Part shown: piece after piece, positions 1-64,000 of the stretch | Layout: every line of letters begins with the position of its first letter | Numbering within the stretch: position 1 is the stretch's first letter | Program-made: the position numbers and the translations under genes | Notes under the pieces: generated by a model | What the model saw: only the letters and a program-made list of their open reading frames with translations | Databases searched by the model: none | Told to the model about the DNA's origin: nothing | Source: Antedon mediterranea | Lineage: Eukaryota > Animalia > Echinodermata | Assembly: GCF_964355755.1 (NCBI RefSeq) | Contig: NC_092673.1 | Span: 34,407,648-34,471,647, forward strand | Length of the DNA: 64,000 bases | Direction: 5' to 3'

Positions 1-2485
1 GTTCGTATTAAAAAGTGAATTTTAAATGTACGAATATGGTATTAATTATCTGTATTACATTGTATTATTATGTATCACATATATAACAAGTCATTTTGAT
101 AAAAAATAAGTCAAATAAATATGAAAAACAAAGGAAAATTGTGATTTTTGCATGTCATCTGAAGTGACCTTCCATACAATGTGATAGCGCCCTCTATAAG
201 TATTGATACACTCGCACTTCAAACTGCAAGCTTTTTGTTGTTATGATTCATTCATTCAGAAATACAATTTAAGGAAGGAATCGAATCAAGGGCATTATTA
301 CTTGGTTTATTATATATTTATGATGTTTTCCCCAAAAATAATTACTAGTATGTACATTTTGCGAATTGTAGATGTACCGGCGGTATGAAATTAAAAAAAG
401 CTGTTTACGCGGTCTGTAGCCTAACGATATAATAATAATTATATGTATAAAATAATTGTTACTTTTTTCTGATAAATCAGTATGAATATGTTTACTTAGC
501 GCTGCTTTAAGCACCCTATTAAAAAGAAAAGAAACAAATTGATTTAAGCCTATTTTTTGTCACGTTTTCGGTAATTAGTTGTCGATCTTCTTCGCTCTCA
601 CTATCTGATTCGTCACTGTTCTCATCATCCGAGTTAAAGGAGTCGTTCTCAGCAATCGCTCGTTCAATTCTGTTGGAAGAATCTCGCTTTCACACCACAA
701 AGGCCCCAGCAAATCGTTATCGCCAACGCACCATCCGTTATTGTCTTGGGGTTTCGGCAACTCGTAAAATCGGTGTTAGTGCGAGCCTCCACAGATCCTG
801 ACTTGATAGTTCGATCATCGTGCGTTGTATATGTTGATGCAAGCATCTACGCGACGGTGGAAAGTTAGCTAATTTTTAAATCAATGTTTTTTTAACACTG
901 ATTATTCCGGGTTTTTTTTCTTGCATTTCCTGCGAAAAAAGTCAAATCTAAGTTCATCGGTAGGCCTACGCCTTGCTTTCGAACGGAATCCATATAATAA
1001 TAACAGGCACGTGAACTATTCCAGTTCCAACATTAACTCTTCTTCTCCTTTCCAACTTTCTCCTACTTTCTTGAAAACCTCTTCAAATTTTGGATATTTT
1101 TCGACAAGTTTAATGGCCTTTAATTTTCCTTTTCCCTTGAAAGCGCTGGTCGTGCTGCACTTTGTGAACGCATGCAGCCCTAGAATGGCAATACATCGAC
1201 TTGGGGTGATTTCAGTGGTGGCTAAACTGGTGAGATTGGTTATTCGTCGATTCCTGCCACTGCCTGTATCGAATAGGACTTTTGCAATAATGGACGAAAC
1301 AAAATGTAACAATATAAAAAAAAAACATCGCTGTCATATGGATCCCGATCGAAAGCAAGGAGTACCGATGAACTTAGATTTTACTTTCTTCGCAGGAAAT
1401 GCAAGGAAAAAGACGGATAATCAGTGTTAAAAAACATTGATTTAGCTAACTTTCCACCGTCGCGTAGATGCTTGCATCAACATATACGACGCACGATCGA
1501 ACTATCTTGGTCATGATCTGGAAGCTCGCACTAACGCCGATTTAAGAGTTGCCGAAACCCCAAGACAATAACGGATGGTGCGTTGGCGATAACGATTTGC
1601 TGGGGCCTCTTCAAACAGAATCGGATGATGAGAACAGTGACGAATCAGATAGTGAGAGCGAAGAAGACGATTAATTACCGAAAACGTGACAAAAAGTAAG
1701 CTTAAATCAATTTGTTTCTTTTTTTTTAAATATGGTGCTTAAAGCAGCGTTAAGTAAACATTATTATTCATACTGATCTATCAGAAAAAAGTAACAATTA
1801 TTTTATACATATAATTATTATTATATCGTTAGGCTACAGACCGCATAAACAGCTTTTTTTAATTTCATACCGCCGGTACATCTACAATTCGCAAAATGTA
1901 GTAATTATTTTTGGGGAAAACATCATAAATATATAGTAAACCAAGTAATAATGCCCTTGATTCGATTCCTTCCTTAAATTGTATTTCTGAATGAATGAAT
2001 TTATAACAACAAAAAGCTTGCAGTTTGAAGTGCGAGTGTATCAATACTTATAGAGGGCGCTATCACATTGTATGGAAGGTCACTTCAGATGACATGCAAA
2101 AATCACAATTTTCTTTTGTTTTTCATATTTATTTGACTTATTTTTTATCAAAATGACTTGTTATATATGCGATACATAATAATACAATGTAATACAGATA
2201 ATTAATACCATATTCGTACATTTAAAATTCACTTTTTAATACGAACGCAAATGTCGACAATGGCGTGTCATTCACTTATGCCCCATGACGTCATTTTTCG
2301 ATGAAAACAAACCACGACGATAGGAAGCAAAAACTGCGTATAAAAACTTCATTTTCTCCACAAATCCCAACTTTTACGCGACGCAACATATATAAATGAT
2401 CTTTACATAATGTCTAGAACCTACGGTGAGAATCTCGTTGACTACTAACGTTATGCAATGGTGAAGGTGATATTTTACTGGACTA
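1..2485. mobile_element. Foldback (palindromic) non-autonomous Academ-type DNA transposon; left end lies outside the window
   Basis: Bases 1-~994 are the reverse complement of ~1336-2246 (window start gttcgtattaaaaagtgaatttt vs aaaattcactttttaatacgaac ending 2246). The right arm continues to ...ttttactggaCTA (2485), a TAG..CTA-type terminus as in the element at 5825. XPG-like coding remnants lie inside. The TSD cannot be checked. Confidence 0.75.
575..1335 (-). pseudogene. Degenerate 3' part of Academ-type ORF (XPG/FEN1-like nuclease region and acidic tail)
   Basis: Frameshifted translation gives DSDVFF..LLHF, FDTGSGRNRR, GLHAFTKCSTTSAFKGKGK (GCDTTSxFxGKGK-like), NFPPSRRCLHQHI.R..NYQ, GW...L.PLW and an acidic tail. 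Confidence 0.7.
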
Positions 2486-3667
2486 GTAGATTTATATTTT
2501 AATGACGTTGAATATATAGTAGAGTTAGCTTTGTGGCATTAGAAAAGATTGGTCGGTCTGTGTAGAAGTAGCGTTAATAACGCCATCTATTAGTATTAGG
2601 GAGCATTGTTATGAATATGCTTGCATTAGACATGGCCATGCGTAGATCAAAAAGGTTAAAATGTCAACAGTTTTATATACATTTGTTTTGACTGATTGGT
2701 ATAGATTATTGGTTGTTTAATAGTCGCGAGATATTATTTAGAGGGTAACAGTAGGACTATGTATATTCAGGAAAGAACACCTATCCTGCAATCTCTCGGG
2801 AAAATTTAACGGTAAATTAATTAAGCTTTTAGTTGATTTATTAAAAGTGACCAGCAAAATTTTCACTATAAGAAAGTGAAACATTGCCTTTAAAAAACTA
2901 TTAATGGTACCAAAATGATACCCGATTTTTGACAAGCGCGTTCAAAAGGTGATGAAAGCAGTGATGATTCTAAACGTCAACCTGTGTTTCCTCGTGTCAA
3001 ATTGGTTGACATTGTCAGTCTTACTGTCCGTCCGTCCATCAATCAATCATAAATAGAAATGACATAGAGAATTTCATAATAGACAATATGAGAGAAAACA
3101 ATATGAATTATATCTCTCTTAAAATGTCAATGTTTTTTTAAGTTTTAATTTTTTTAATAGGCCCCACAGAAAACTTTATTCTATAGGTATTTTTTATTAC
3201 CTTTTAAACACCTATTTTATGTAATACTGAAAGTTAGAAAAGATTTAGAAACAGATAGAAGTAGAAAAAAAGATTTCATTAAAAAAAAATCTGCAGAAAA
3301 AAGAGATTTTGAAGATACAATTACTTACGCGTCTCAACAACAACATGGATTCTATTTTTAACTTCTCATCCGTGTGTAGTATAAGTATATAATTTAAAAC
3401 TATCTTTCAATTAGATTTTGCTTTATACCCGCAGGTCAAAATAATCGGGTTAGCGTAGAGAAAAAGCCGGCCCACATCAAGATAAATTAATAAATGAAAA
3501 TCTAACGACGGCAGCAGCAACATTGTCTGTTCTGTATACAGTATGTGAATGGTGTATTGATTACTAAATCCATTATATTTCTTTTGAATCACGAATTTTG
3601 TTTTTTATTCGAATTTTATTCAATTAATAATTAACATAGAAGAAGTTTTCTTTTTTGTTGATTCAAA

Positions 3668-3854
3668 GAAAGACTAAAAATAATGAAAGACTAAAAGTAA
3701 TGAAAGACTAAAAATAATGAAAGACTAAAAATAATGAAAGACTAAAAATAATGAAAGACTAAAAATAATGAAAGACTAAAAGTAATAAAAGACTAAAAAT
3801 AATGAAAGACTAAAAGTAATAAAAGACTAAAAATAATAAAAGACTAAAAATAAT
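3668..3854. repeat. 17-bp minisatellite (gaaagactaaaaataat) x ~11
   Basis: Direct tandem periodicity. Confidence 0.95.
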
Positions 3855-4210: not shown

Positions 4211-6559
4211 ACAAAAAACACTCGAAAAACTGTTTTTGTATACTGTCATTTCAATCCGCCATGCAGCTTGAAATTCTTTTGGGCGCAACTAATTTTTGAA
4301 CCGTGCATTATGGTATATTGGTAACAAAAGACTATTTGTATTTTGAGGACTATTAACGTAGAAGAAAACGATAACTACTGTTTCTTCTTTCTTTTTATAC
4401 TTTATATGCTTTAGCAAGATCTGTGCAATACAACTTTTCCTCTTTTTTCAATGCTGCTGGCATCAACTTATTTGTATTTATATCAATCAAAAGGCTACTG
4501 GAGCTGTATACAGATTACATATGTCTCGTCTCGGATTATTTTGGTTGTATACTAGAGATGTTTATTATACTGTGTATACAATGTGCGTTTAAGTTAGGCC
4601 TATAAAGTAATTCTTTGGAAAAACAAAAGAAGTCCATTAATCAAATTAAGATCATTGCTTTAACTTTTTTTTAAAGAATATTAGGCCTAGAGTACTTAAC
4701 CATTTATCATACTGGTAAATTTAAAAACTTATATTTTTAAAAATTTAACATACTGAATAACAAACAAATAAATCTTTCTTCAAGTAACTTAAAATATCAA
4801 TGATATTAATCTAAAGCATTGCCTTCTAAATCGTTTAAGTAGCATTAGTATATACGTTGCTTTCCGGCGGACCGATTCCAATATCATGCACGCCAATTCC
4901 GCTTGTCATCCAGTTATAGTGATAAATGAGTGTGGCTAAATAAAGGTTCATTAGATGAATATAAATATATATTTAAACGACCATTCACACGGCTCTATGA
5001 CATCGATATGCCATTCCATCTAAGAGTCATTGTAAAACTTTTAACAAAAAAAAATGTACAGCACGATAGTCAATTAACTTTATTCCGAGAATTTCTGCAT
5101 TCATAATTGCAACACTCCAACAATTCGTCGTCGGCATCACGAAGTGACACTAACCTAAAATTTTTCTTCCATATTTTGATTATGTATATCAAACTCTATG
5201 TTTTCACAAAATTTAAACATTCAAATATCATTAATTAACTAATTACATTAATTAGACAATATCAAAAAACACCATCATATGGAATTTGCGTTTTTACGAA
5301 GTGACACTATTTATTAAATACCCGTATGTGCTGCTTGCGAGCGCCACACTGGTAATGAATTTTGCGCGTTTGTTTACTGTTTGGGCCTAGCCTACAGCCT
5401 AGCTAGGAGGATCTGGACGCACACTCCACAACATTGCATTTCATTAAGAAAGACGGTAAGTTAATTAGTTTATTTAAAGAATTTTAGTCTGCTCATGTAT
5501 TCCTCATGTCGAGGCCTATTATATATTTATTTTATAATTAATATAAAACAGTAATTTGACACACTTTAGCCTACTACTAGCTAGGCATAGGCCTAGTAGT
5601 AGGTAGGCCTAGCCTAGACCTATACTTTACTGTGACGTTTAGGCAAAGCTAGCTTGCCCAGATCTACCTAGGTTAGCATCTGGCCTGGCGTACATTATTC
5701 GGTTAGTAGGCCTAGTTAGTTAGGTCCTCTAAGCCTAGCATAGGCCTAACAAACTAGAGTATGCGTATGCCCAGGGAATAGTAGTAGTAGTAGTACTACT
5801 ACTTGGCTAGAGTAGACTCTTTAATAGACAGGTTCCATTTCTCAAAAAACGGCCTAGAAAACGAATCAAGAAGCATTTTTGGGTAGAAGCTGGGATCCAC
5901 TTGATTTAGGATATTTCGACCTCGCTGATTACGAATATGGCGGATCCCAAGCGAAATTCGGCCATCTAAGCCCTTAATTTGCATAATTAAAAATGGCGGC
6001 CATTTTTTATAATTACCCTATATCTCGAGAACCACTAGTCACAGATAATTAATTTTGGTCTCAAATTGTTTTAAATGTATGTTTTTATATTCACTTTAAT
6101 GACACATTTTCTCAAAAAATGGATGCAAGTCTTATTTCTGACATTTTGACCTTTGACCTTGATTTATCGTATCTCAGTAACCAATAATCTGAGAGACATG
6201 AAATAGGGCTCAAATTGTTCAGAAACTATACATTCATATTTATTATAATGAAACGTTTTTACAAAAAATGGCCGATTCTACAACTATTGACCTTTGAACT
6301 ATTAGTCAAATATAATAATATAATAATAATATAACTTTGAAAATTGTGGTCTTATGATTTTTTTTTTCTTTTTAAATTGTTTAAAACATGTGTGTTTCTA
6401 TCCAGTCTAATGGCACATTTTGTACAAGAATGGCCGATAGTATGATTATTGACCTTTAAAATACAGCATAGGCCTACTGTATACTAAATACAGTATAATA
6501 TAATTGCATAACTATGAAATTATTTATACACAATAATAATTAGTAAAATTATAAAATTC

Positions 6560-7275
6560 ACTGCCATCAAATATGATGTATTATGATTTATATAGATTTA
6601 AAAAAAAATTTGAGCACGCAAGTTACATTTGTTGAAATTCGAAATTTGAAATTACCTGCCATCAATATGATGGAGTATGATTATAGATTTTTTTTAATTT
6701 GAACATGTCAGCTACATTTGGAAATTACCTGCCATCAATATGATGGATTATGATTATAGATTTAAAAAAGAATTTGAACACGTAAGCTACATTTGAAAAT
6801 TACCTGCCATCAATATGATGGATTATGATTATAGATTTAAAAAAGAATTGTAACACGTCAGCTACATTTGGAAATTTGGAAATTACCTGCCATCAATATG
6901 ATGGATTATGATTGTATAGATTTAAAAGAAAATGTGAACACGTAAGCTACATATGAAAATTACCTGCCATCAATATGATGGATTATGATTATAGATTTTA
7001 AAAAGAATTTGAACACGTCAGCTACATTTGGAAATTTGGAAATTACCTGCCATCAATATGATGGATTATGATTGTATAGATTTTTAAAGATGTGAACACG
7101 TAAGCTACATTTGAAAATTACCTGCCATCAATATGATGGATTATGATTATAGATTTAAAAAAGAATTTGAACACGTCAGCTACATTTGGAAATTTGGAAA
7201 TTACCTGTCATCAATATGATGGATTATGATTGTATAGGTTTGAAAGAAAATGTGAACACGTAAGCTACATTTGGA
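6560..7275. repeat. Internal ~60-70 bp tandem array of the left arm (mirror copy at ~8935-9470)
   Basis: Unit aattacctgccatcaatatgatggattatgattatagat...gctacatttgga. Copy number differs between arms. Confidence 0.9.
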
Positions 7276-7293
7276 ATGAACATGTTAAGGGCA

Positions 7294-8545
7294 TCAGTTT
7301 TGATCATTCATCATGCAAAGGTTTCCGTCATCTTTAGCGTTGTTACAGCGGCATAAAGCTGTACATGGTAGTTTTGACTTCTTGCACCTACATCTATATG
7401 GTTATGCATCGTGTCTTGCATCCACAATAAATCATCTCTAACGAAGGAGTAGGAATAGCTTAATTTTTCAGAAGCACTGGTTGAAGTTTACCATTAGATA
7501 GCTCCCAACCAAAATCTGTTGGTGATGGCAATTAATGCTGGATTGGCGATACAGCTTTTTTCCGTACGAGTGCTTGGAAGTGTGCTCTTTTTATATGTTG
7601 GTGCACTGCATCGCTTGTTGGAGGTAATGCCTCTGGTTTTTGTTTTTTTTAAACATGGCATGCCTAACTTCATTGGTACTTTTAACTTGACCAACACCGT
7701 AAACGTAGCAAATGAATCTTTCCGATTTCATAATAACTTGGTCACTGATAGGTTTTCTCCCAGGTCTTTAATTAGTTCATAATTTTTTTGTAATACTTCC
7801 CATGCCGATGCCTTTGAGTGACCACTTAGATATGAGCAGGGAAGAGTTAAATTACTGTATGTATGTATTAATGTAATTTAACTCTTCCCTGGATATGAAT
7901 GTTGTATTTTCTCTTGTTTGTTATGTGCAATTTGGACCCCATTGGAAATGGGCTGGTTTTTCCGGCCTAATGGGTGTTCCTGATGCTCGTTATTTTGTCT
8001 TTTGTCTGTTTGTTATTTTAATGTTGAGCATCAAATAAATTCAATCAATCAATCAATCAGGTAGTATCGCATCCACTAATAGTGTGGAATGGAATCAGTG
8101 CTTTTGCAGAACCATCCGGCAAGTCTTGAAAAATGTCTTTTATAGATACTTTCTTTTTTTTGATGTACCTGTCATCATCCATTTGGATACCATGCTTTGG
8201 TAGTGAGACACTAGAATCACTAGTACGCCTGTATCCCTAGAAGCAACTACAACTGTGTCGTATCGGACATTGGCAGCATGACAAGTCGCGTGTCCGCTTC
8301 TTCATGATATCCTACCAGAGACAACGTATTCGTGTAGACTTTTGATGATTTAACAACTGATTCTTCCATAAATCCACCAGCTGTGACAATTTCTTTGTCT
8401 ATAGGAGCTTGACGAATCAACTCCTCTGATAGAAATCGTGCCAGATCTGCTTTATTTTCTTGTAATGCCAAAAAGTTCGACCAGCAATTTGGCTGGCTTT
8501 GTTTTGGTTCATCTTTGTCTGGTGGTGTCCTTTATCGACAGTTTT
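7294..8545 (-). pseudogene. Degenerate C-terminal part of AcademX ORF (XPG-like nuclease + Cys-rich zinc finger)
   Basis: Motifs NKADLARFL, HEEADTRL, SGCDTT^SYLSGHSKASAW (split by an insertion), LPPTSDAVHQHIKRAHFQ, DFGW, CGCKTRC...CRCKKSKLPCTALCRC. The C-terminal part is mirrored on + at ~8550-8916. Confidence 0.85.
7837..8058 (+). mobile_element. 5'-truncated non-LTR retrotransposon 3' stub inserted in the Academ XPG motif
   Basis: Ends in aataaa + (tcaa)n. Removing it restores GCDTTSYLSG. There is a 19-bp inverted duplication at its 5' end (7837-7855 / 7873-7891). Confidence 0.7.
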
Positions 8546-11500
8546 AAGTTAGGCATGCCATGTTTAAAAAAAAAAAAACCAGAGGCATACCTCCAACAAG
8601 CGATGCAGTGCACCAGCATATAAAAAGAGCACACTTCCAATCACTCTCGTATGGAAAAAAGCTGTATCGCCAATCCAGCACTTGCCATTACCAACAGATT
8701 TTGGTTGGGAGCTATCTAATGGTAAACTTCAACCAGTGCTTCTGAAAAATGAAGCTATTCCTACTGCTTCGTTAGAGATGATTTATTGTGGATGCAAGAC
8801 ACGATGCATAACCATATAGATGTAGGTGCAAGAAGTCAAAACTATCATGTACAGCTTTATGCTGCTGTAACAACGCTAACGATGACGGAAACCTTTGCAT
8901 GAATGATCAAAACTGATGCCCTTAACATGTTCATTCCAAATGTAGCTTACGTGTTCACATTTTCTTTCAAACCTATACAATCATAATCCATCATATTAAT
9001 GGCAGGAAATTTCCAAATGTAGCTGACGTGTTCAAATTCTTTTTTAAATCTATAATCATAATCCATAATATTGATGGCAGGTCATTTTTAAATGTAGGTT
9101 ACGTGTTCACATCTTTAAAAATCTATAATCATAATCCATCATATTGATGGCAGGTAATTTTCAAATGTACCTAACGTGTTCACATTTTCTTTCAAACCTA
9201 TAGGCCTACAATCATAATCCATTATATTGATAGCAGGTAATTTCCAAATTTCCAAATGTAGCTGACGTGTTCAAATTCTTTTTTAAATCTATAATCATAA
9301 TCCATCATATTGATGGCAGGTAATTTCCAAATGTTGCTGACATGTTCACATCTTTAAAAATCTATAATCATACTCCGTCATACTGATGGCAGGTAATTTC
9401 CAAATGTAACTTGCATGTTCATTTTTTTATTAAATCTATATAAATCATAATACATCATATTTGATGGCAGTGAATTTTATAATTTTACTAATTATTATTG
9501 TGTATAAATAATTTCATAGTTATGCAATTATATTATATTTATTATACAGTAGGCCTATGCTGTAGTTCAAAGGTCAATAACCATACTATCGGCCATTCTT
9601 GTACAAAATGTGCCATTAGACTGGATAGAAACACACATGTTTTAAACAATTTAAAAAGAAAAAAAATGTCATAAGACCAACATTTTCAGAGTTATATTAT
9701 TATATTTGACTAATAGTTCAAAGGTCAATAGTTGTAGAATCGGCCATTTTTTGTAAAAACATTTCATTATAATAAATATGAATGTATAGTTTCTGAACAA
9801 TTTGAGCCCTATTTCGTGTCTCTCCGATTATTGGTTACTGAGATACGATAAATCAAGGTCAAAGGTCAAAATGTCAGAAATAAGACTTGCATCCATTTTT
9901 TTAGAAAATGTGTCACTAAAGTGAATATAAAAACATATATTTAAAACATGTTGACACCAAAATTAATTATCTGTGACTAGTGGTTCTCGTGATATAGGGT
10001 AATTATAAAAAATGGCCGCCATTTTTAATTATGCAAATTAAGGGCTTAGATGGCCGAATTTCGCTTGGGATCCGCCATATTCGTAATCAGCGAGGTCGAA
10101 ATATCCTAAATCAAGTGGATCCCAGCTTCTACCCAAAAATGCTTCTTACATCATATTTCAGAGGAAATAGAACTTGTCTATAATAGCTAGGCTAAACTAC
10201 TCTGCTTGATTTTTAACAATAAGAATTAAATCACTGTTATTTTTAAAATGTGTTTTTTTTTTCAGAACAGTTTCAAGAAAATAAGATAAGGGGGAACAAC
10301 CGAAATTCGATCAACAAGCAATCTATCTACATCAATTTAAGGGAGAAGGTATCAAGTTCAAGGTTTAAAAATGGGGGAGGTGTATGTAGGCAGCCTGTAG
10401 CAAGTGTTTATGTTATATGAGCATTTTAGATGATGTGTACATCACAGAACAATGGATTGAATAAATTAAAAAGCATACTGGTAATAGAATAAAATAATGT
10501 AACGACATTGATTAAGTATTTAATGATTTATAACAATAGAGAATAATTTTTGATATAAATTAATACTGGCTGAAATACCAATTGTATTACTGAATTATTA
10601 ATCGTTCAATGTTGAAAAAATAAATAATATTTAATAATATGGAAAAAAAATATGAATATGTACATTATGCTTACTGTACATTCCAGATAGGCCTATTTAT
10701 ATGTCTATGTAATTTGATGTTTTTATTAAAAGTGTTAAAGTAGGTCAAACTATGTTTTTAGATTTATTTGATGTGGTTGTTTCATTTATAAATAACCTAA
10801 CCCTTTCTGCACTATCAAACTAGTTTGACAAAAAAAGTTTGATGTGCCCAAATATGGAGTGATATTATGCCATTGTGTCCATATAAGCACATCAAATTAA
10901 TGTTGGTCACATTAAGTTTGATTTTATTTATTTCAACAATATTTTACTAGGGTGGTCCTTCCAGTCGAAGGTGATCATTAGATAGAGAGAACCTCACAAA
11001 AATGCAATTTGATAAGACAATAACATACAAAAATTAAATAAAAATAAATAGAATTTATGAAAACTAACAAACTAAAATAATGGAAAAATGAATAGAATCA
11101 AAAGGGAAATCAATGAAAACAATACATTAAATGGCCATCTCCGAGGAGATGGCCATGTAATAAATAAGGAAGAGATGGTTCTTGAGCAAAAATTTGATGG
11201 AAATGGAAGATGAAGCAAGTCGGATAGTGCAGGCAGGGCTTAAAGGAGACATGCATGTTTGTAATGTATATATAATAGTGTTCACTTATCAAGGACCATA
11301 CTTAATTGTTATGATGTAAGATCATTGCATTGGAAAGCTATGAATTACACAGTAGTGTCACTTCCAACGCACTAGAAATACGCGGTGAAATCGAATTTGC
11401 GGTTTCACGAAGTGACACTAACGCAGTTAGTGTCACTTCGTAAGCGTAAACTACGTAGGGAAATGAATTTTTCGGTTTCACGAAGTGACACTAAAGTTTA

Positions 11501-12289
11501 ACTTTAATTTACTTGGTAATTAATTAATATGATTAAAATTAAATTAAAGTAACGGGTAGCTGGATTGTCTAACTTTGTATGTATGTAAATTAAAAATCTT
11601 AGTGACATTTTTTTGAGGACGAAATCGTGTGTTTTGTGAAGCTCGTTTCTTCAATCGCGTTTTTCTCGAAACGCTGTTTTTATCAATTACGCGGTTAGTG
11701 TCACTTCGTGGTGTCGACGACGAATTGTTACGAAGATGATATTACGAAGATACTCATACAGTATAATGTCAAAAGTCGTACCTCTCTATTCACACCTGGG
11801 TGAGGGACATATTCTTCTAGCGTCCAAAGCTTCTTCTACACTATCAAAACTTTACAATGTCATATACCCATATATGGACATATAACTGAAAGACGATTAT
11901 GTGACAGATATCCTACTTAAGTACTACATTCAATCATTAAATGAAAACAGTTTTAATCAATTTCCAATCAATTGATTATTTTGATGGATACTGTAGCCAT
12001 TTTCATTAATTATCCCACATCTCAGAGCCGATTCAATCAAGATAAAAATATATCAATGCTTTACACATTAAAACAAAAATTCCGGTAGCGGAAATGAACA
12101 TAGTGTAGAATGTTTTTAATGCGTTAAATATCAAGGTAATGTCATATAAAAAATTAATTGTTTATCGTTCCCTCCTACCGATGAAATCGGCATGACATTC
12201 GTTTTTATGTTTATGCAAACAAAATGTTGTAAGAGCTTATTTCCTATCAAACGTATATCAGACCTGAGGAATTCCATGGAATAATGTAA

Positions 12290-39600: not shown

Positions 39601-39689
39601 GCATACACATTCTGTCATGACATTTGTATTGACGTCGTATGACACGATGGAAGGTATGATTAGAGAGATGGTGGGGTGGTGGGGAGTGT

Positions 39690-52058: not shown

Positions 52059-55000
52059 ACTATATTTTTGGAAAAAGTGACAATTTTAAAAATTTTTCCT
52101 GAGGTTACAGGTGTCTAAACATAGACCTACCCAACAGTTATTGCATTTACTTTAGTATGGTGCGCCGAATATATAAAAAGCAACATATATCTATTTTCAT
52201 ATATTGTTCTGTGTGTTGTAGCATGACGATAAATCATATTAAAATTGTATTTGTTGCGCGATTAGTATAATTTCAGACGCGTGCGGTCGGCTTCTAAGGT
52301 CTTGTAAATGAGCATATCCTGGACACATTCATGGTACATTCTAAAAAAGGTCACTTCTGCTTATTTACACTATTTTTGTTTATATTTTTCTATTTAAAAA
52401 AAGAAAAAAAAACCAGAAAACCCATAAATATACAATTTACAAGTTGGTTACCTCAAGGACGGCAATCTTGTGGCAGTTGATTGTGACCAGCAAGATTTTA
52501 ACAAAAGGAAAATTTTACCAATTATTCTTATATGCAAAACAAAGCTAAAGTACTACAGAACCTCTCATTTAGAGGGAACATACAGCCAACCTCTATTAAG
52601 GGGACACTCCTAATATGAAGGACACGTTGTTTGTTGTGTCCAGAAGGAGTCTGTAATACGTCACATCAAAACAAAATTGTTCAACAGACGAAGTAGTGAA
52701 TGACAAATTATTCAGCGTATGGTATTTATATCGGGAATGTTGACATTTTAAACGTGGTCATGTTGCCATTGAATGGCATAGGATTTACAGGGGCTTTAAT
52801 GATCATCACTGCTGGCCATCACTGCAGACAAAATCCAATGCTTCTTGCGGTAAATGACTGCATGAACATTAGACACGCCGAGTGGAACGGATTACTTCGC
52901 AATGGTTAACTGATCTCAGACGGATATATGCTCCATTTGTTTAAAAACAAAAAAGAAAACATACTAACATATTCATACTTCAGTTATCTTCTTCGTATCC
53001 TGCTAGCTACACAGGTCGGATTAAAAAGAAAACGAGATAGACGCGGGGTATTTTTTTTTTAACAACCCCAGGGGATAGTATAAGACGTTGGCGACTAAAG
53101 CATCGAATCTCGAATAGTGTTAAAACAATAAAACAGCATATACATACTAAAAATACCTGCCGCAAGTATATATTTTTATGTCTTATTAGTACTGTTTGCA
53201 TAAATAGGCCTTATCATGTGAATTATTTTCATAGAGGTCTATGAAAATAAGCTGCGAAAGCGCAGTGATTTGGGAGGCGCGCGTTATAAACGTTGTTTAA
53301 CGGTACCAGTATTTTTATTGTACATTTTTCAGACACTGCTATGGAGGAGGATGTGGATGTGCATAATATTATATCTTTGAGTAATAGACCTATATTACAG
53401 GAACAGTATGTAGATTGTTATGACTGAATTGAACGTTAAAAAACACCTCCTACCTAGCACTAATCGGTACTAATACCCTGTTAACGGCAAAATGAATAAA
53501 CAAAGTATCTGCCATCACAGACATGTCAATAAAAGCCGTGACATTCTGAACGGTAAATGCGCTTAAATTAATTTTCTGCACTGGACACGTAATTTAAGTT
53601 CGTGTAACCGTAAAACTGACAATAGTGCGAACATTAAGGATGTACAAAGCTAATAATTCTTTTTAGGTCGACTTACAAATAGAGTACTTTTGATCAAATT
53701 ACTTGTTGATATATAAGTACAAACTATTTCCACTTCCAGACAATATTACCACTCCATTAGTGGAAAAATTAATTATAGAATTGCAATTGTATAATAATAA
53801 ATAACCATTTAAATGGATGTTAATTGGTTAAAAGCTGTAATACTTCTCACAGCTAATGGAAATAGCTCTTCGTGTATGACACTTGGTAGTAAATTAAGCG
53901 CTCATTTGCATCTTTTGAGCCACAGGTGCCGAATGAACAAAAGTACAAATGTACGCTAGTAGACCTCCGATTGTAAGAGATTTGATTGGAGAAGACGTTT
54001 TAAACCGCCAGAAATATGCACTAGAAGAGCCTCGAACCTGTACCTGACTATAGGTGATATGAAAAGAAAAAAATAGTACATGCCGCTTATCAATAAAGGA
54101 CGGTAATCTCATGAAAATACACCAACTTTGAAAGAAAACCCCCAAATATTTACCTGAATTAAACCCCTGTAATTTAAGGGAAAAATATATGGATTTTGGT
54201 TAAATTTAACTGTTTATTTTGTCTTTTATAGGCTAAGTGTCGTCATTTTCATATGGAAAGGAATAATTTCATTAAAACTGCAAAATGGCCTATAGATTCA
54301 AACTCAATTATATATAAATCCTTATTTTTCATGAGTTAGGGGTACAATACATCTTCAATCATCATGATCTTTTTCTGAACATTTATGACGGCTATTGCAT
54401 CCCTTAGATTGGAGGTATGGAAGGCAAAAATGGAAAAAACACCGTCATTTCCAGATTTAGGATAAAATAAATTCTATACAGAAAATGGTACACATAAATT
54501 GCAAGAAACCATTTGAAAACTAAGCATGACGTAATCTGCTATAATAAAAAATAAAATAAAAGATGGATCGACTGCATTTAATATGGAATAGCAAAAACCA
54601 TAAAATAAATTGGAATATGAACCAAAGGCCAAAACAAAAACAGCTAATATAAAAATATTTTCAACGTTTTACATCGATAAAAATCTTTGTCGTAAAATTG
54701 ACGCTTTTATAATTGCGTTTCGTTGAGTTAAAAAGGCAGATACGCGGTCATTACGCTATTTCTTTAGGAAAGTCACATTTTCATATCGATAATATAGATC
54801 ATATTGAACACATAAATGTCATTCTAAACGTTATTAATGATCTTAATATAAACTTTAAACTCCATTAATCTATAGTTTTTATCAAAGAAATACGGGTATA
54901 TAAATGTTGAAATAGCATTCATCACATCATAAAAGTTTGCGGCGTTTGATGAAAATATGACCGAATTAATCTAACTCGTGTGATTTACGACTCTTTATAT

Positions 55001-56404
55001 AGAAAGGTGACATTTTGAAAATTGAACAAGATTAAGAAATAACGTGGAATAACCCGACGACACAGGCAGGAAGCACAGACAAACCTACGCACTAAAACAA
55101 AGGTTGCGCCTTTTTCTACAAAGTGTTATTCTATTACAACCGGTTATCTGTATTGTACTTAATTCGTTCAGTATAACACGAAATTTCTATGATACAATAT
55201 CACATGTTCGTCTTAAGTATCATAGGAATTATTTGAAAGATATGATTGAAGTTAAGGCAAAAACAATGTCATATGTGATACTGTATTTGGAAACGTGCAT
55301 GATACTACAGTATACATCATGAAATTGTGGATGGAGAATCGGGCTTTAGACATAGATATAGCATGGTGTAATTAATATATATCATGAAACATGGTTTTTA
55401 CCTTTAAAAGTAATATTATTAATGCGTTTCTACAATATAGGCCTAGTCTTAGATAATAACTCTAAACCTAAATGACATACATTTTAACAACATTTGCGAG
55501 TTATATAATTCTTTGTTAGCGAAGATATACATTACCTTTAGGCATTTTAAAACAACTCCTATAATAGCAGTTATCTACCTTGCGTGTTAACATTTCTGTT
55601 TCCGAATAACTAAGCTTATGTTCAGACATAGGAAGTTGATACAAATAGTAACATATAAGGTACTAGGAGTTAGGTAACCAAAAAGTAATATATTATCAAG
55701 AAGGCAGTTTAAACAACATTGCATATCAAACAAACCGATCTAGGTTCTATAATACCCACATCCATTTCAAAAGCCACTTTTGTTTGTGGCCTCGACAAAC
55801 ATTTGGATATACATGGCTTAACTTGAGATTTAATTAGATCATTTCACAGATAAGGCAAATTTGTACTTGATACGACGGAAATTCAATAGTATTTATTTCT
55901 CAATAATAAGAAAAGAGACTTGTGACAATTTTTGCAGTTGATAAATTATTATTCAGAAAAATACTTATAAGTTAATACATAATACTACAAATCCTCGGTA
56001 ACACTTTCCCTCAAAAGACAAAACACAAATTGAACGCGCGCGTACAAAAATGTGCATACAACAAGGTTTGTTTTCTGTGTACAGATGTACTACTATGGTT
56101 TATACGCGCGCGTACTTAATGCAGTATTGATCACCGGCATTTACACGCTCGCGTATAAAGAAATATTACATTAAGGTCCACGATTGTACGCGCGTGTTTA
56201 AATGCATAGTAAATTATCGGGATTTATATGCATGCGTATAAATATGCTATATATTCTAAGCTCAAGTTCAAGAAGGAATAATAAAATACAATAATTAAAC
56301 AGATGTTAGTTAGTTATGTTATGCAAGTTAAGTTATTAATATTTTCTGTTCAGAAGATATTAAAGAATGGCAATTTCATTTCAATATTTAAAAAAAAAAT
56401 CTTT

Positions 56405-56503
56405 TTAGTCGCGTGCAACGCGATTCTACAGCTCACTATGTCGGTCGGTTGGTCGGTTAACACTAACGTGAGCATGCGACTGCAGCCATGAATATGGCCT
56501 TGT
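56405..56503 (+). mobile_element. Short Helentron/DINE-1-like element
   Basis: Inserted in a T-run, with a 5' hairpin agtcgcgtgcaacgcgatt, a (gtcg/gttg)n tract, a subterminal inverted gcgact and a 3' ggccttgttttt end. Confidence 0.6.
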
Positions 56504-57931
56504 TTTTTTAAACTGATGTTGTGAATACATTTGTAATGAATGGTTTGTTATTTTATTTTAAAATATAAAGGCTAGGCCTATACAAAATAACATTTCGTTA
56601 TCTTAAAAGGTCGTCACATCTTGATTAGCTTGTTTGTGATTGGGGTATGCTTTGTTCTGAAAGAGATGTATTTGTTTTCATTCAGTGTTGATAGCGATGG
56701 TTTTCTTTTATCCATGCTCGTGGGAAACTCGATCTATCGATAAATATAATCCTAAAACAACCATTTATCAAGAATACATATAATACAAATATATAAACAG
56801 AAATCATGAGATGATTGTCAGAATCGACTATATTTGACAAAAATACCTTATGGCTATTTCAAAATGTTGAAATGCTACCTAAACCGATAAAAGCTACGAT
56901 TACGTGGTGAATTATGACTCATTTTCAGTAGCTAATGACACAAAACAATTGTAGAACTGACGTTGGAAAAATACCGAATACATCTTTGGGTTGTGCCTGT
57001 TAACTGTACGTCAAGTGGACCTTCGACAAAAAATAAGTAAAACAAGTTGAGAAATTATGTATTCCTTTTAGGCCTACTCTACTGTATGTTAAAGCAGAAA
57101 AGCATTCATAAGCCTAATGGCTCTCTTCTTAAGTTTGGCACTAGCGACGCAACGATTTGACCAATTGACAAGCGATGGATTATTCAAAAAGTGGCTGGTC
57201 ATTGTAACTCGTGTAAACGGGCGCAAAAAAGACAAGGTATTCTTATGTATTAGTATAGGTCAAATCAAAGATATATAGTATTGGCATGTAAAATGAAAAT
57301 AAATAAGAAAATAAGGGTTACAGTTTCTAGCCTGGTGCTCATTAGGTCAATACAAATGATATGTAATATATTGATGGTTCAGAAAATACCTAAGTTCATA
57401 TTTTATCCTGGTAGTTCAGCGAGTGTAGGTCACTCGTGTTCTTTTAAATGTTAAGCCACAGATTATCTAATTATATCTATTGACCGATTGCTGACCTCGA
57501 TATTTCATAATATCAGAATGACCGACGGAACAAATGGTCAAGAATTACCTGGAAGCCACATTGTAGCCTACCATTTATACTGCTAATTAGTGGGTCGGTG
57601 GACAAGTGACCCATGATAGGTTTTCTTTCTCAAATGAATTTGAAATTATTTTATATTTACTGAATTATTTTTAAACTAAAACACGATTTGTAGATAGTTA
57701 ACACGTATTTCCAATTACACATGATCAAAACGTTTTAATTTACATAACATATTAAAATTACAGTAATCAAGACAGTTGTATCTATATTCACTAATTTATT
57801 TCCTATTCCTATTTTACAGCTATTTAATAGTCCAGGAAATTAAAAAAAATCAGACGATTATTATATGGTATGAATTGTAATTAATATGTTGGGGGCGCTA
57901 ATAACAGTTTCGTATAGAGTGCCGTATATAC

Positions 57932-58222
57932 TGGAGAGTGATGGTGTAATGGTAATATCGGACTAGCATGTGATAGGTTCGAGGTTATCTGTGCCATACT
58001 AATTGCATTACTCTCATTGCCTCATCCTTCGGATTGGATGTAAAGCCGTTGGTCCGTACTTAACAATTCACGTTAAAGAACTTGGTACACTATTTGAAAA
58101 GAGTAGGGGATCGTCTCCCGGTGTGCTGATCTGGTAGGCGCTGCACTGCTGGCTGCCGTGGGTCCGTGGAGGGCCTAGTCCGAATTTCCTTAGTTTCCAG
58201 TTAAGCTCGAGGACAAATATAA
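57932..58222 (+). mobile_element. tRNA-derived SINE with Deu/Nin-type conserved core
   Basis: A/B-box-like head (tggtgtaatgg...ggttcgagg) and core ccttcggattggatgtaaagccg...cacgttaaagaac...actatttgaaaagagtagggg...cccggtgt. Confidence 0.7.
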
Positions 58223-58393
58223 ATACCTTAGGCATATAACCCCTCCTCTATTAAGCGGACACTTTGTTGGGTCCCGAAGGTGTTCTCGTAATAACTTGGG
58301 GTTCTACTATATAAGTGAGTAAAATAAAAAGTAATGTTAATCATAGAGGGTGACGTGTTACTTGGAAAATAGTACAAATAGAGTGATACTTAC

Positions 58394-58673
58394 ATAGTGC
58401 TTCGCCCAGCACCCACTGTTCCAGTACAAACGTTTCAATCAATGCCACTGGCATGCAAATAAGAAGCACTAACATATCTGCTATACTTAAATTTAGTAGA
58501 TAGTAATTTGTTGAACTCCTCATGTCAGAGTTCCTCCAAATGACAAAAGCAACCAGAATGTTGCCTACAACTCCGAACGTAAATATTAACACGTAAGCAA
58601 CGGTGGTGGGAATCATGGTAGACATGGGAAGTTCCTCAATAAGAGCTGTTGAGCAATTCTCGTAAGCATCCAT
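58394..58673 (-). CDS. Class A GPCR, ETH-receptor-like, coding exon 1 (N-terminus, TM1, TM2, ECL1)
   Basis: acaATGG start with an upstream in-frame stop and an NCS sequon. Motifs GVVGNILV, DMRSSTNYYLLNLSIADMLVLLICMP, WVLG; donor gtaagt at 58393. Confidence 0.95.
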
Positions 58674-59689
58674 TGTGTCCGATTTGTATTCTCTCAGGCT
58701 AAATCACAAAGTTTGATAGTTTTATCAACAACCTTAGTCGCTAATTGTTTCTATGAAAAATTCGCGTTACGACGACGCACGTTGAACATAAAGCGCGTTA
58801 TTCACGAATACATTAAAGTCACTTTTTACGACGTAGCACACTATCAACATATAACATTCTTAAATATATTTTCCATAGACAATGTTCTCTTGTAGTTGCA
58901 ATATGTTCATAGCGGTATTAGTTAATGTACAAAATTGTATTCAATATGCTATCCTCAGATCACTTTCCTACAATAATACTGTGTCTGACAAATTACACAG
59001 AATGATAGGCGATACAAATCTCGTGTTCACGTACATATATATTTATATATATACAAATATTCGTCTGGGTGACTGTGATTCGCTAAGCGTACGTCAAACA
59101 GGTTGGACATAAAACACATTAGCCAATCACAGAAGGGATAACGCGGCGTAACTTATATCTCATTTTCTGGCCGTTTTCTCATTGCTAGGGTTTTCCTAAT
59201 TGTCATCAATGAACGGATCAATAGACTAATATTGTTTGCGTAGCTCAGGTTCGCATATTTAACTAAAGATAGGAATGGGATGGCTCGCGTGATCAATTTA
59301 AATAATACCTGTACTGGAGCTACAGTATTTCCTGAAATATATGTATTTTTTTAACGCAACAGCAACCCTTTTATTTCTTGAATGATGGTTGCAAAATAAT
59401 ATGACGTAGAACATGACCTTGAATTCTAGATAATATAACGATCCCATTGGACATACGATGAATTGAAATTGACCAAATCTGGGACGTAATTATGCGATCA
59501 TATTCTTTGTACTTAGGAGAAGGGGTCACGGCAGCCGGGGAAATGAGTGGAGTCTGTATTCTTGTTCTATTTATACTAAGAATGAAATTACCGTAAAACT
59601 TAATCTTGTCGTCATTTAAATGTAATTAAACCATTCAATAAATGCATGCAGTGCAATGCCTGTACATCGATCTTCCATAATATTTGTAT

Positions 59690-59975
59690 CTTTTCCTAAT
59701 ATTACTTTTCCATTGGTAGATTTCGTATCACATGTCAATGTTAAATTCGTTCTATTCAACCAATGTCAATAATCATACAGTTCCATTTAACTGCTAACAC
59801 GTTGTCACGTGATAACCTAATATTAATTTTCCATTGGTTGAATTCGTATCACATGTCAATGTTAATTTCGTTATATTCAACCAATGTCAATAATCATATT
59901 CAACAGTTCCATATCAACTGCTAACACGTTGTCACGTGATAACCTAATACTACTTTTCTATTGGTTGAATTTCAA
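59690..59975. repeat. ~125-bp tandem duplication ~1 kb upstream of the GPCR start
   Basis: The block ttttccattggt...ttcgtatcacatgtcaatgttaa...aactgctaacacgttgtcacgtgataacctaat occurs twice plus a partial copy. Confidence 0.85.
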
Positions 59976-60489
59976 TCGTTCCATTCAACTGTCAAGTGAT
60001 ACGTTCATAATTAATCCACAACACCAAATTGCTGTGCTCCCCGGGCCGCAACATTCAAACGCCGCCATTTTGTCATGTCAAGTAAAACCTGTTATTTTGC
60101 CATCCAATGTAAGCTGGAATAGACAATGTCTGTGTAATGTCAGAAGTAATTATTTAATGTTAACAATACATTTACTTTACTATTAGAAAAGTAGATGTAT
60201 TTACGTAAACAATTATAGAAAAAAAAGCATGGGAAAGAGGCAGGATAAGAAGCAATAACTTGATGGATAAGACCATGATAATGAAATATAATACTGATTA
60301 GTATTCAAGATATAACAGATAGTAATTGTGCATAATGACCTTTTAATATACAGTCTAGTACTGTACAAATCAATTTACAACAAAACATACAATAACATTA
60401 ATGCAATCCATCAATGAGGGCGTTGTTGAATGATTACACAAAACAGAGGTACTACACCTTAGTATAATGTACTGATTGTTCAGGGATAT

Positions 60490-60710
60490 CGACTAATAGT
60501 GTCTCCCGAGTCTTCTCGGATAAGGACTATAAACTGTAGGTCCAGTGTACACATCTAGCTCGTGTGCACTTTAAAGAACCTAGTACATCTTTCGAGACGA
60601 GTAGGGGGTTACCCCGGTGTATTAGTACATCACAGCCACTGATCACCAACTGGGCCCTCTGGGAGACCAGTCTTTGACTGAAGAGGTTACCCAGTATAAA
60701 AATAAATAAA
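60490..60710 (+). mobile_element. 5'-truncated Deu/Nin-core SINE (second family)
   Basis: tcggataaggactataaac..aggtcc...gcactttaaagaacc...ttcgagacgagtagggg..accccggtgt, followed by an A-rich tail. Confidence 0.65.
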
Positions 60711-61252
60711 TTTCCCCGTCCCCCGAATACCGTAAAAAGCCGTACCGAAGGTCTATATGACACTATTGATTCTTGTAAAACACATGTGATGCTGTATTCC
60801 CTAATATTTCTATGATACTCAGTACCGAGAATTGCGTGGTAGCGTTTAATAGACGCTGTCTGAATAGATTGAAAATTAATACTTAATATACTTTATAATA
60901 TATAAACGCATAGTGCTCAAATTATATCGTATCTTAATGGAAATGGCATATACCTGACTTTGTAGAGGACTAAATAACACGGGCCTAGGCCTATATAACT
61001 TAATCTTGTGTTTTGTTATTCAATAGATAAAATGCTAACGAACTTGGTTGAAACCTGTTTGAAGATAAGTTTGCTAGCGGGATATACTTTGTGATTAAAT
61101 TTAGCCATCAGCAATATATAAACAACACATATGTCTATACACTGCATATCTACCCAAAATAAAAACATGGTTCTAACAAATTGGATTAGGAACAAATCCA
61201 ATTGTTTACGTAAAAAGAATATAAAATTGGATACTAGTAATACCTTAAATTC

Positions 61253-61313
61253 GTTACGACTTACGTTACGACTTACGTTACGACTTACGTTACGACTTAC
61301 GTTACGACTTACG
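61253..61313. repeat. 12-bp repeat (gttacgacttac) x5
   Basis: Direct periodicity. Confidence 0.9.
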
Positions 61314-61474
61314 TTTAAGCTGTACTTTAGCTGTATTCATCAATGGTAGGGCTTACTTAAGCTAACAAATTCCCTTAACATGCTTTCACTTGGTACAAAT
61401 AGGAGAATATTTAAATTTTAAGGGTAATGCGTTTTCCCTTATTTTAGTTAAAGATAATATATTAAAACAACAAT

Positions 61475-61735
61475 AACAACTAACAATGAACAACTAACAA
61501 CTAACAACTAACAATGAACAACTAACAACTAACAATGAACAACTAACAACTAACAATGAACAACTAACAACTAACAATGAACAACTAACAACTAACAATG
61601 AACAACTAACAACTAACAATGAACCACTAACAATGAACAACTAACAACTAACAATGAACAACTAACAACTAACAATGAACAACTAACAACTAACAATGAA
61701 CAACTAACAACTAGCAACTAACAACTAACAATGAA
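61475..61735. repeat. 7-bp microsatellite (aacaact/aacaatg)
   Basis: Direct periodicity with a 21-bp higher-order pattern. Confidence 0.95.
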
Positions 61736-61841
61736 CCAGCGTGTATCATTTTAAAATCTAAGATGCAATTTACATTCTTCTATTCTAGTATTTTAATTGT
61801 TAATGAATTAGGCCTAACTTGCTACCGTAAATCTTTCTAAT

Positions 61842-62005
61842 ACCGTAAAACCTCGAAAAGAAGCCCATGGACTTAAACCTCGAAAAGAAGCCCATCTCAA
61901 AAAGAAGCCCCCTCTACAGTTTGCAAAAGTACTCTCGAAAAGAAGCCCATCTCGAAATGAAGCCCCCTGGACTTCTTTTCAAGATAGCATGGCTTCTTTT
62001 CGAGA
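61842..62005. mobile_element. Terminus of pogo/Tigger-like DNA element
   Basis: TA|CCGTAAAACCTCGAAAAGAAGCCC with the motif ctcgaaaagaagccc repeated directly and inverted. Confidence 0.55.
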
Positions 62006-62064
62006 TGATGATGATAATAATTAATATGTATGATCGTGTTTATCATACATTTATTTTACAGTTT

Positions 62065-62396
62065 ATTGTCGTCCAAATGGTGCTTTGATCGCATCTTGTA
62101 TCCTTTTCTTGTCTGCTTCGTTGGCAAATATGTAAAATCGGCAGGGAATTTCCACACCTCCACCAAATACCCATTTTCCTTTGGGGCCGTTCGTTCCATT
62201 CCAGTTATCTTGGCTTTAAGGTGCACTACTGTCGATCCTATCCTTCATCAACGGAGCTATTATTTGAGTAAAACATTCAGGACCATGTCAAACATCTGCA
62301 CCATTCAACGAACATACATTGATTGCACCCCCGTGGGGTTACTATTAAAGTCACAAAAATGACATTATGAAGACTGGTCGTTTATGATGCAGCCAT
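62065..62396 (-). pseudogene. Degenerate HIRAN-like domain ORF adjacent to the transposon end
   Basis: Frameshifted translation N....AINV......(G)HGP...IIAPLM....AKITG.ERTAPKGKWVFGGGVEIPCRFYIF resembles the HIRAN-like GHVP...ITG...GGxEIPC pattern. Confidence 0.45.
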
Positions 62397-64000
62397 ATTT
62401 TGAAAATTAGGAGATAGGCCTAATGCATGTTGATCTCGGGGCTCGGGGAGAATTGAGTGTTTTTGAGTTTATAAACTATAAAGTCAGAGCTCAAACAAAT
62501 GATCCGCCTTCAACTTGTTTTTGTTTATTTTATCTCGCTTTTTTGAACCGGTATACAACTGTGTGATAGAGTTTATACATAATTTCCTACAGTTAAACTC
62601 TGCAGTCATAACATTTTACATGATAATAATTTTAGATTATGTGTAGCGCATTATACTAAAGCCTCGGTGCGCAAATGCCAACAGAATTAAGAAAAATACG
62701 AGCTAAAAAGGTGAGTCGACATTAAAGCGGTCTTAAAATCAGCATCCATAGCGGTATGACACGGTTCCTTTATTATACTAATCGTAATGAGCCCGTTTTC
62801 CGGGGCTTGTCATTTACTAATTCAAAGTGGGATTTCTAATAACTGTTACAACCCAACATCGTAATTGGTCTGTCAGCACTTTTCGTAGTTGCATATTTCT
62901 TTAGTGGGTGTAAGTGTTGTTTTACCATAAGGTGTGTATTATGATTGAAGTAATAAGACTTTGTTTATGTAGAGCATCTTGTGTATATGTTTGTCTTGTG
63001 AATCTCCGAGGGTCCCTAATGATCAGCAATTGCTGGATTAAACACCCTCATTAAATATGGTTTAAAAAAATGTAAAAGTAAAATGCGGATATATGACTCC
63101 AATACAGTAATACAAAAACCAGTAACTTAATGATTCCGATATATATAAAAAGAGCGGTGAACAGCATTCTCTGCTGATGGCCATCATAAATGCTCGGTTC
63201 TCAAACACTTTGTGATATAAAGGCTTTTCGTTAAAATATTAAGTTAACCCTTTACGGTTAACGAAGTATAGATATTCAGAAACACATATCCAATTATTAT
63301 GGTTAAAGAGGCATTATAGCTTAGAGGCTGTGTTAGAACATGTCTATTCATTTCATAGTCGATAACCCGATAGAGAAATCCCAGACAGCGCCAACCACAA
63401 CATGGCATTGGTCCATCAATGAAAAGAAACAAGAAAAGGATAGACATTATAACACGAGTGTAAGCACCCTAAATGGGTATTATATAAAATTAAGATTGAG
63501 ATACAAAACATTCATATTATAGTTATGTACAGAAAGGCTACAGTAACAATACTAACCAATTTGGACACATTCTTAATGTTCAAACATAAGTCTGTTTGAA
63601 GATTATTTAAAATAGATTCATTGACAGACAAGTTTAAGGACGCCGCTTACCGCTGCCGATGCATAATAGATGGCATTGATTAGAATTGCGTGACCAATAT
63701 AGAGTGCCAGTCTGTGAAATAAATTCTAAAAAAAAATTAAATTTGATCCAATTTGTTTAGCCAAAGGTTTTCCATCAGTGAATTATTTTATTCCATAAAC
63801 TGATTAAAAAGACGATCATCTGCGTATGATCTCACCAATTGTTAATTTTCAGAAATTGGCGTATTAGAGGAAAGGAATTTAAAACGTGTCGACGACCGTA
63901 TCTTTTGTCTTTTGTTTTGTATGTAGTGTTTCATTCGCCTATTGATTAATGAGAAACATATCTGTACCAGTGCGTTCAAATGCCGATAATAATATTAGAA

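What the first reader, a model, noticed from the sequence alone, without database searches (positions are those of the whole stretch)
961..62422. Recurrent exact TA -> TAGGCCTA insertion: a pervasive 6-bp footprint/mutational signature
Seen: three cases can be polarised against paralogous copies in the window. (1) 961-968 catcggTAGGCCTAcgcc vs catcggTActcc in the opposite arm. (2) 9201-9208 cctaTAGGCCTAcaatc vs cctaTAcaatc in sibling units. (3) 33655-33662, one unit of ~30 with gtaTAGGCCTActc vs gtaTActc. I count about 29 TAGGCCTA by eye outside the 32-bp satellite, against fewer than one expected from base composition (rough estimate), and none in the GPCR exons. Inference: TA duplication plus GG|CC is the excision footprint of a very active TA-targeting cut-and-paste element with GG...CC ends. 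A dedicated repair or insertion process is the alternative. No donor element is visible here.
Basis: partly seen in the sequence, partly recalled or inferred. Interest (0 to 1): 0.85.

Follow-up and report, generated by a model that had tools for sequence, protein, structure and literature searches.

The report
Transposon exit scars at TA sites
The eight-letter palindrome TAGGCCTA occurs about 50 times more often than chance in this animal DNA and is repeatedly a six-letter addition at a plain TA, most likely the scar left when a cut-and-paste jumping gene with GG...CC tips jumps out again, although no such jumping gene was found in this stretch.

Summary
TAGGCCTA occurs 54 times: 25 in one 32-bp satellite, 29 outside. 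With arrays masked there are 26 against 0.5 expected; no other TA-xy-y'x'-TA palindrome exceeds 2.1-fold. Two more 6-letter cases came from paralogous contigs (19196, first T now C; 5572), plus inexact ones (22006, 5588). The textbook Sleeping Beauty-type scar TA>TACAGTA is also enriched (36 vs 12) and polarised twice, an internal positive control. Best reading: end-joining scars of a TA-duplicating IS630/Tc1/mariner/pogo-type element with GG...CC ends. The spectrum (+6 dominant, +5 TAGGCTA/TAGCCTA enriched, +4 TAGGTA not) best fits GGC ends with 3-nt overhangs joined through a 2-bp GC overlap. Decayed copies suggest long, steady deposition, so a 'very active' element is not required. No donor, transposase or filled allele was found; no whole genome was available, so the donor step is inferred. 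Some copies are inherited inside repeats, and absence from the GPCR exons is uninformative. The scan reported the same scar in other animal genomes (unchecked notes, some claiming pogo donors). My paper searches found no description of it.

The parts
961..968 (.). TAGGCCTA; the opposite arm of the same fold-back element has a plain TA (exact 6-base indel, direction not fixed by two copies)
9201..9208 (.). TAGGCCTA in one unit of the ~80-bp subterminal array; sibling units have plain TA
33655..33662 (.). TAGGCCTA in 1 of 30 full units of the 49-bp array; the best polarised and a young insertion
19196..19203 (.). CAGGCCTA (scar with first T read as C) in a high-copy repeat; 6 letters absent in 34 contigs of X7, 30 of X8, 2 of X1, leaving plain TA
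   Evidence: table 4
22006..22013 (.). TAGGCCTA in a high-copy repeat; paralogues lack 5, not 6, letters (43 and 9 contigs of X7): compatible but inexact
   Evidence: table 4
5567..5748 (.). cluster of four TAGGCCTA (5588, 5604, 5707, 5741) plus TAGCCTA at 5567 and 5610; one X7 contig has an extra GGCCTA at the TA at 5572-5573; one contig each of X7 and X10 lacks 9 letters at 5588
6469..6476 (.). TAGGCCTA inherited within a fold-back element: also in the other arm (9550-9557) and in a contig of another sample (X1 record 8)
9550..9557 (.). mirror copy of 6469, not an independent event
50755..51589 (.). 32-bp satellite whose unit contains TAGGCCTA (25 exact copies): one site amplified
4595..62422 (.). 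19 further single TAGGCCTA with no paralogue in the window: 4595, 4682, 10688, 13819, 14745, 16749, 20947, 22279, 31186, 38588, 38873, 39859, 46124, 55438, 56573, 57069, 60986, 61809, 62415
6489..6495 (.). control scar TA>TACAGTA; 5 letters absent in the opposite arm and in paralogous contigs
22702..22708 (.). control scar TA>TACAGTA; 5 letters absent in 35 contigs of X7, 14 of X8, 6 of X1

Best explanation
TAGGCCTA here is a six-base addition at TA sites that is most likely the end-joining scar of a cut-and-paste transposon of the IS630/Tc1/mariner/pogo kind with GG...CC ends. Shown: TA becomes TAGGCCTA with the same core whatever the flanks, and some scars were later copied inside repeats and one satellite. 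Inferred: the element inserts at TA and duplicates it; on excision the transposase cuts a few bases inside the element, leaving its tips as 3' overhangs; end joining keeps them. The favoured geometry is GGC tips with 3-nt overhangs: pairing through the self-complementary GC and filling one base per side gives TAGGCCTA, and full overlap with a central mismatch gives TAGGCTA/TAGCCTA. GG tips with both 2-nt overhangs kept, or cohesive 4-nt GGCC tips, give the same 8-mer and are not excluded. Deposition has likely been slow, long-lasting and includes recent events.
For: 26 vs 0.48 expected. All 3 of the 3 six-letter indels among 28 rows of 3 or more letters between paralogous copies outside satellites are [T/C]AGGCC before TA, plus 1 of 30 array units and a contig-level case at 5572. 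The three most enriched of 32 TA-xyz-TA words are those with complementary x and z: TAGGCTA/TAGCCTA 15 vs 4.8, TACAGTA/TACTGTA 36 vs 12.3, TACCGTA/TACGGTA 12 vs 5.7. TACAGTA/TACTGTA is the canonical Sleeping Beauty footprint, and such footprints copy the first or last 2-4 nt of the element (PMC6943129, passages); it is polarised twice here. Transition neighbours of the 8-mer 28 vs 4.4, transversion neighbours 14 vs 8.8: ageing copies. 4 of 26 sites share a TA with another scar-like word; re-insertion beside a footprint is described for Stowaway (PMC1925063, passages). GG-beginning TIRs exist among Fot/Fot-like pogo elements (PMC7386202 supplement 3 rows).
Against: No TA|GG...CC|TA element of 30 bp to 15 kb and no recurring TA|GG end family in the window. 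No DDE transposase family among 136 ORFs of 62 aa or more scanned, of 146 listed. No filled allele and no heterozygous TA/TAGGCCTA site among the rows shown (12 of 225 and 12 of 22 indel rows). The GG-ended pogo rows I saw were fungal, algal or oomycete with TAA/TAAA duplications; the 2 echinoderm rows seen have CAG ends (only 10 of 99 'GGG' places shown). 22006 (5 net) and 5588 (9 net) are not exact. One contig pair differs by a single G between TAGGCCTA and TAGCCTA at 5611, so some 7-mers may be decayed 8-mers, weakening the 3-nt geometry. A six-letter indel at 4498 is not this motif. In rice, Mariner insertions outnumber excisions 2.6-2.8:1 and excisions are mostly imprecise (PMC4423477, passages), unlike the uniform scars and missing donors here.
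Confidence: 0.72

Rival explanations
1. A fixed-sequence insertion process without a resident transposon: hit-and-run or aborted integration, a domesticated transposase, or a repair enzyme that writes GGCC at a staggered break around TA (equivalently AGGCCT between T and A).
For: No donor in 64 kb against about 26 scars; very uniform product.
Against: Random G/C addition would also enrich TAGCGCTA, TACCGGTA, TACGCGTA, TAGCTA: observed 0, 0, 0 and 13 vs 11.9. Templated repair would depend on flanks, but the core is constant. The known scar TACAGTA shows similar excess also with no donor in the window.
Confidence: 0.13
2. Scars of a GG-ended element with another target: Zator or PIF/Harbinger (TWA) or ISL2EU (AT).
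For: ISL2EU TIRs usually start GG (PMC4482050, passages); Zator GG ends with TWA duplication (recalled). The 22006 site reads TAA in most paralogues.
Against: Only 8 of 29 reconstructed empty sites are in TAA/TTA context vs 54% of all TA sites, P=0.003. The exact pairs duplicate TA only. ISL2EU duplicates AT.
Confidence: 0.06
3. The excess is inherited repeat sequence or a selected binding-site motif, and the indels are deletions between two TA copies.
For: 25 satellite copies, a pair shared by two arms and a cluster in a low-copy repeat are inherited; clustering of 4 in 200 bp, P=0.004; 961 cannot be polarised.
Against: 33655 (1 of 30 units), 9201 and 19196 are the minority state in their families. 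19 single sites have no paralogous flanks in the window. Selection for a site would not act inside a satellite unit.
Confidence: 0.07
4. Library or assembly artefact (linker or ligation junction).
For: The core is palindromic like a restriction site.
Against: Copies decay by transitions, are duplicated with their host repeats, and 6469 is spanned without a 6-letter gap by a contig of a different sample and study (X1 record 8).
Confidence: 0.02

Closest known systems
Sleeping Beauty canonical footprints TACAGTA/TACTGTA (PMC6943129; passages read)
   Same: TA duplicated around a few constant bases independent of flanks; this very scar is also enriched and polarised in the window.
   Different: Core GGCC and +6 dominant instead of CAG/CTG and +5; here a natural, inherited, dense record (about 1 per 2 kb, 0.46% of TA sites), donor unknown.
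Tc1 somatic excision scar of C. elegans (PMC13148408; passages read)
   Same: TA target, short fixed scar.
   Different: The typical Tc1 scar is +4 (78%); the +4 analogue TAGGTA/TACCTA is not enriched here (27 vs 29.7).
Fot/Fot-like pogo elements (PMC7386202; passages and rows of supplement 3)
   Same: TIRs can begin GG; the text reports TA duplications in 50 Fot-like elements. Earlier scan notes name pogo/Fot-like donors for this scar in other genomes (unchecked).
   Different: Rows seen with GG ends have TAA/TAAA duplications and are not animal; no such element was found in this window.
Natural Stowaway/Mariner footprints in grasses (PMC1925063, PMC4423477; passages read)
   Same: Footprints recognised in natural alignments, including re-insertion beside an old footprint.
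   Different: There footprints are varied and fewer than insertions; here one product dominates and no element is in view.

Membership tests
ITm (Tc1/mariner/pogo) excision footprint | TA target present once before and twice after | tested here: met
   961, 9201, 33655; 5572 in a contig; 19196 with one transition
ITm (Tc1/mariner/pogo) excision footprint | short constant core between the TAs, independent of flanks | tested here: met
   same GGCC in different flanks
ITm (Tc1/mariner/pogo) excision footprint | core equals the tips of a TA-flanked TIR element in the same genome | not testable with these tools
   no whole genome; none in the window
ITm (Tc1/mariner/pogo) excision footprint | matching DDE/D transposase | not testable with these tools
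   none among 136 window ORFs scanned against Pfam; genome not held
ITm (Tc1/mariner/pogo) excision footprint | filled / empty / scarred allele trio at one locus | tested here: inconclusive
   no filled allele among the few rows shown
Tc1-type scar with +4 dominant | TAGGTA/TACCTA as main product | tested here: not met
   27 vs 29.7 expected; comparator PMC13148408
Zator / PIF-Harbinger | TWA target duplication | tested here: not met
   8 of 29 sites vs 54% background, P=0.003; TWA for Harbinger from PMC4482050, for Zator recalled
ISL2EU | AT target duplication | tested here: not met
   duplicated dinucleotide is TA; PMC4482050

The most novel reading that the evidence does not exclude
A GG-ended transposase lineage or a domesticated derivative writes a fixed GGCCTA insertion at TA sites by a hit-and-run cycle with self-pairing overhangs, leaving almost no resident elements, and is a leading source of multi-base insertion mutations across several animal lineages: an undescribed germline mutational signature.
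Probability: 0.2. Interest if true: 0.75.

Novelty: new variant of a known kind. Interest (0 to 1): 0.45.

Why it matters
If right, a simple word count reads out the cumulative history of cut-and-paste jumps, including families that left few or no copies. About 1 TA site in 220 carries an exact scar here, which would be roughly 46,000 per 100 Mb if the window is typical. The 8-mer/7-mer ratio would predict the cut geometry of an uncharacterised transposase. The motif would also mislead motif discovery and indel models in such genomes. The chemistry itself is known, and the scan has met the same scar in other genomes.

Tried and rejected
Whole-genome counts and a genome-wide donor search could not be run: no genome is held. 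Search for TA|X...X'|TA TIR pairs in the window: only internal matches within fold-back arms and chance pairs. Recurring solo TA|GG ends: 10 pairs among 311 ends, none a family. Miniature TA|GG..CC|TA elements under 400 bp with arms of 6 or more: 2 seen vs 1.05 in simulations. Pfam scan of 136 ORFs: 7tm_1 twice, RVT_1 twice, two weak unrelated hits, no transposase family. Haplotype test: X7, X8, X10 are one sample and may be the assembly's own source, so they are not independent; tables showed 12 of 225 and 12 of 22 indel rows; 14745 is spanned by a contig with 10 other letters and only 2 gap letters, so that scar is shared. X2 covered 3860-6640 only by short chance pieces. Exon depletion rejected as evidence; 0 in 5.4 kb of LINE fragments vs 2.5 expected is only suggestive. 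Paper searches (listings only, 40 of 283 and 30 of 40 listed for the motif itself) gave no paper describing TAGGCCTA as a footprint or a genome-wide signature; most subscription journals and Repbase reports are not covered. The Passer footprint is in a figure that is not held. An earlier count said 26 satellite copies; the correct number is 25.
Full report
Observation. TAGGCCTA is the commonest 8-mer of the window, 54 copies: 25 in the 32-bp satellite at 50755-51589 and 29 outside. After masking tandem arrays 27 remain against 0.39-0.64 expected at Markov orders 0-2. After also masking the second arms of two fold-back elements, 26 remain in 56,377 bases against 0.48; 100 simulations gave at most 3. 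Of the 16 palindromes TA-xy-y'x'-TA it is 54-fold enriched and the next is 2.1-fold. 33655 is in 1 of 30 full array units and 9201 is the minority state among siblings; 961 has only one partner, so its direction is not fixed. No motif lies in the two GPCR exons (7tm_1 hits), but only 0.7 would be expected.

How the motif arises. A self-alignment of the window outside satellites gave 28 indel rows of 3 or more letters with clean flanks, several of them redundant. All 3 six-letter rows are [T/C]AGGCC before a TA: 961, 9201, 19196. Contigs of public runs add to this. At 19196, 34 contigs of X7, 30 of X8 and 2 of X1 lack six letters, leaving plain TA. One X7 contig has an extra GGCCTA at the TA at 5572-5573, itself the end of a TAGCCTA. 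Against exactness: at 22006 paralogues lack five letters, at 5588 nine, and a six-letter indel at 4498 is another sequence. X7, X8 and X10 are one sample, possibly the source of the assembly; X1 is another sample and study. Only 12 of 225 and 12 of 22 indel rows were shown, and none was a heterozygous TA/TAGGCCTA site.

Inherited copies. 6469 and 9550 are one event in both arms of a fold-back element, and an X1 contig spans 6469 without a six-letter gap, which also excludes an assembly artefact. The satellite is one site amplified. The cluster of four at 5588-5748 (P=0.004 for 4 in 200 bp) lies where several different contigs stack. So part of the count is secondary copying, but 19 single sites have no paralogous flanks in the window.

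Internal control. Among 32 words TA-xyz-TA the top three have complementary x and z: TAGGCTA/TAGCCTA 15 vs 4.8, TACAGTA/TACTGTA 36 vs 12.3, TACCGTA/TACGGTA 12 vs 5.7 (simulation maxima 13 and 19 for the first two). TACAGTA/TACTGTA is the canonical Sleeping Beauty footprint, made by end joining of 3' overhangs that copy the first or last 2-4 nt of the element (PMC6943129, passages). It is polarised as TA>TACAGTA at 6489 (opposite arm and contigs) and at 22702 (35 contigs of X7, 14 of X8, 6 of X1). This DNA therefore keeps scars of known chemistry at a similar excess, likewise with no donor in the window.

Mechanism. Shown: TA becomes TA-GGCC-TA regardless of flanks. Inferred: insertion with TA duplication, excision with cuts inside the element, and joining of the overhangs. 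Three geometries give the 8-mer: GG tips with both 2-nt overhangs kept; GGC tips with 3-nt overhangs pairing through GC and one base filled per side; cohesive GGCC tips. The GGC model also predicts TAGGCTA/TAGCCTA, which are enriched, and not TAGGTA/TACCTA (27 vs 29.7) or TAGCTA (13 vs 11.9), which are not. For Tc1 the typical somatic scar is +4 (PMC13148408, passages). A caveat: contigs differ by one G between the 7- and 8-mer at 5611, so some 7-mers may be decay products. TWA-target donors are disfavoured (8 of 29 sites vs 54%, P=0.003) and ISL2EU duplicates AT (PMC4482050, passages).

Tempo. One-mismatch neighbours are in excess, transitions 28 vs 4.4 and transversions 14 vs 8.8. Their ratio to exact copies, 1.13, matches steady deposition (8/7) or one burst at about 12% divergence; the scar in a 94%-matching array shows that recent events exist. 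Under the steady model each TA gains a scar at about 0.036 of the per-base substitution rate (neutral, ignores copying within repeats). A long-lived family of modest activity would suffice.

Donor. None was found: no TA|GG...CC|TA element, no recurring end family, no transposase family in 136 of 146 listed ORFs. No genome was available. GG-beginning TIRs occur in Fot/Fot-like pogo elements, but the rows I saw were non-animal with TAA/TAAA duplications, and the 2 echinoderm rows seen have CAG ends (PMC7386202, passages and part of supplement 3). Earlier scan notes report the same scar in at least 2 other genomes (15 findings, 8 shown), some claiming low-copy pogo donors with GG...CC tips, and call this genome a feather star; I could check neither.

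Comparison and novelty. It works like a Tc1/mariner-type footprint. Membership is met for TA duplication and the constant core, and open for donor ends and transposase. Natural footprints are described in grasses (PMC1925063, PMC4423477; passages), where they are varied and rarer than insertions; the uniform product and density here differ. Ten paper searches (listings) gave no description of this motif as a footprint, within the limits of an open-licence library.

Verdict. Real feature, new variant of a known kind. Footprint reading 0.72, donor unproven in this genome, interest 0.45.

Noticed in passing
window 5825-10179 and 1-2246: Two long fold-back elements with 97-99% complementary arms. 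The larger ends TAG...CTA between TAA copies and holds broken transposase-like fragments; this resembles Academ elements (label recalled; no Pfam hit).
   Followed up: partly
window 20682-20701: TA-GGCCCA-CATC-TGGGCC-TA: either a 16-bp remnant with GGCC tips or two decayed scars side by side; 0.1 expected within 40 bp in simulations, so only a lead for donor ends.
   Followed up: partly
window 4493-4503: Contigs of X7 and X10 lack six letters (CTGGAG) inside a TACTGTA word: a six-letter indel that is not the GGCC scar.
   Followed up: no
window 5380-5820: TAG/CTAG-rich tract with many scar-like words just after a splice-donor-like GTAAG near 5456; a similar tract follows 20680. Possibly promoter-proximal hotspots; untested, and no RNA run was listed.
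   Followed up: partly
window 24250-25470 and 58341-58703 (minus strand): Two exons of a rhodopsin-family GPCR (7tm_1 profile positions 59-260 and 1-69) about 33 kb apart.
   Followed up: partly
window 39924-45282: Nested broken LINE fragments on both strands (RVT_1 hits at 42591-43860); no TAGGCCTA in 5.4 kb vs 2.5 expected.
   Followed up: partly
window 29529-29560: A paralogous contig carries TAGGCCTA in the letters between the sides of a joint (table 5c): a further scar in another copy of this repeat.
   Followed up: no
window 346-354: A 7-letter TA-duplicating indel (TA vs TAGTATGTA) between the arms of the first fold-back element.
   Followed up: no
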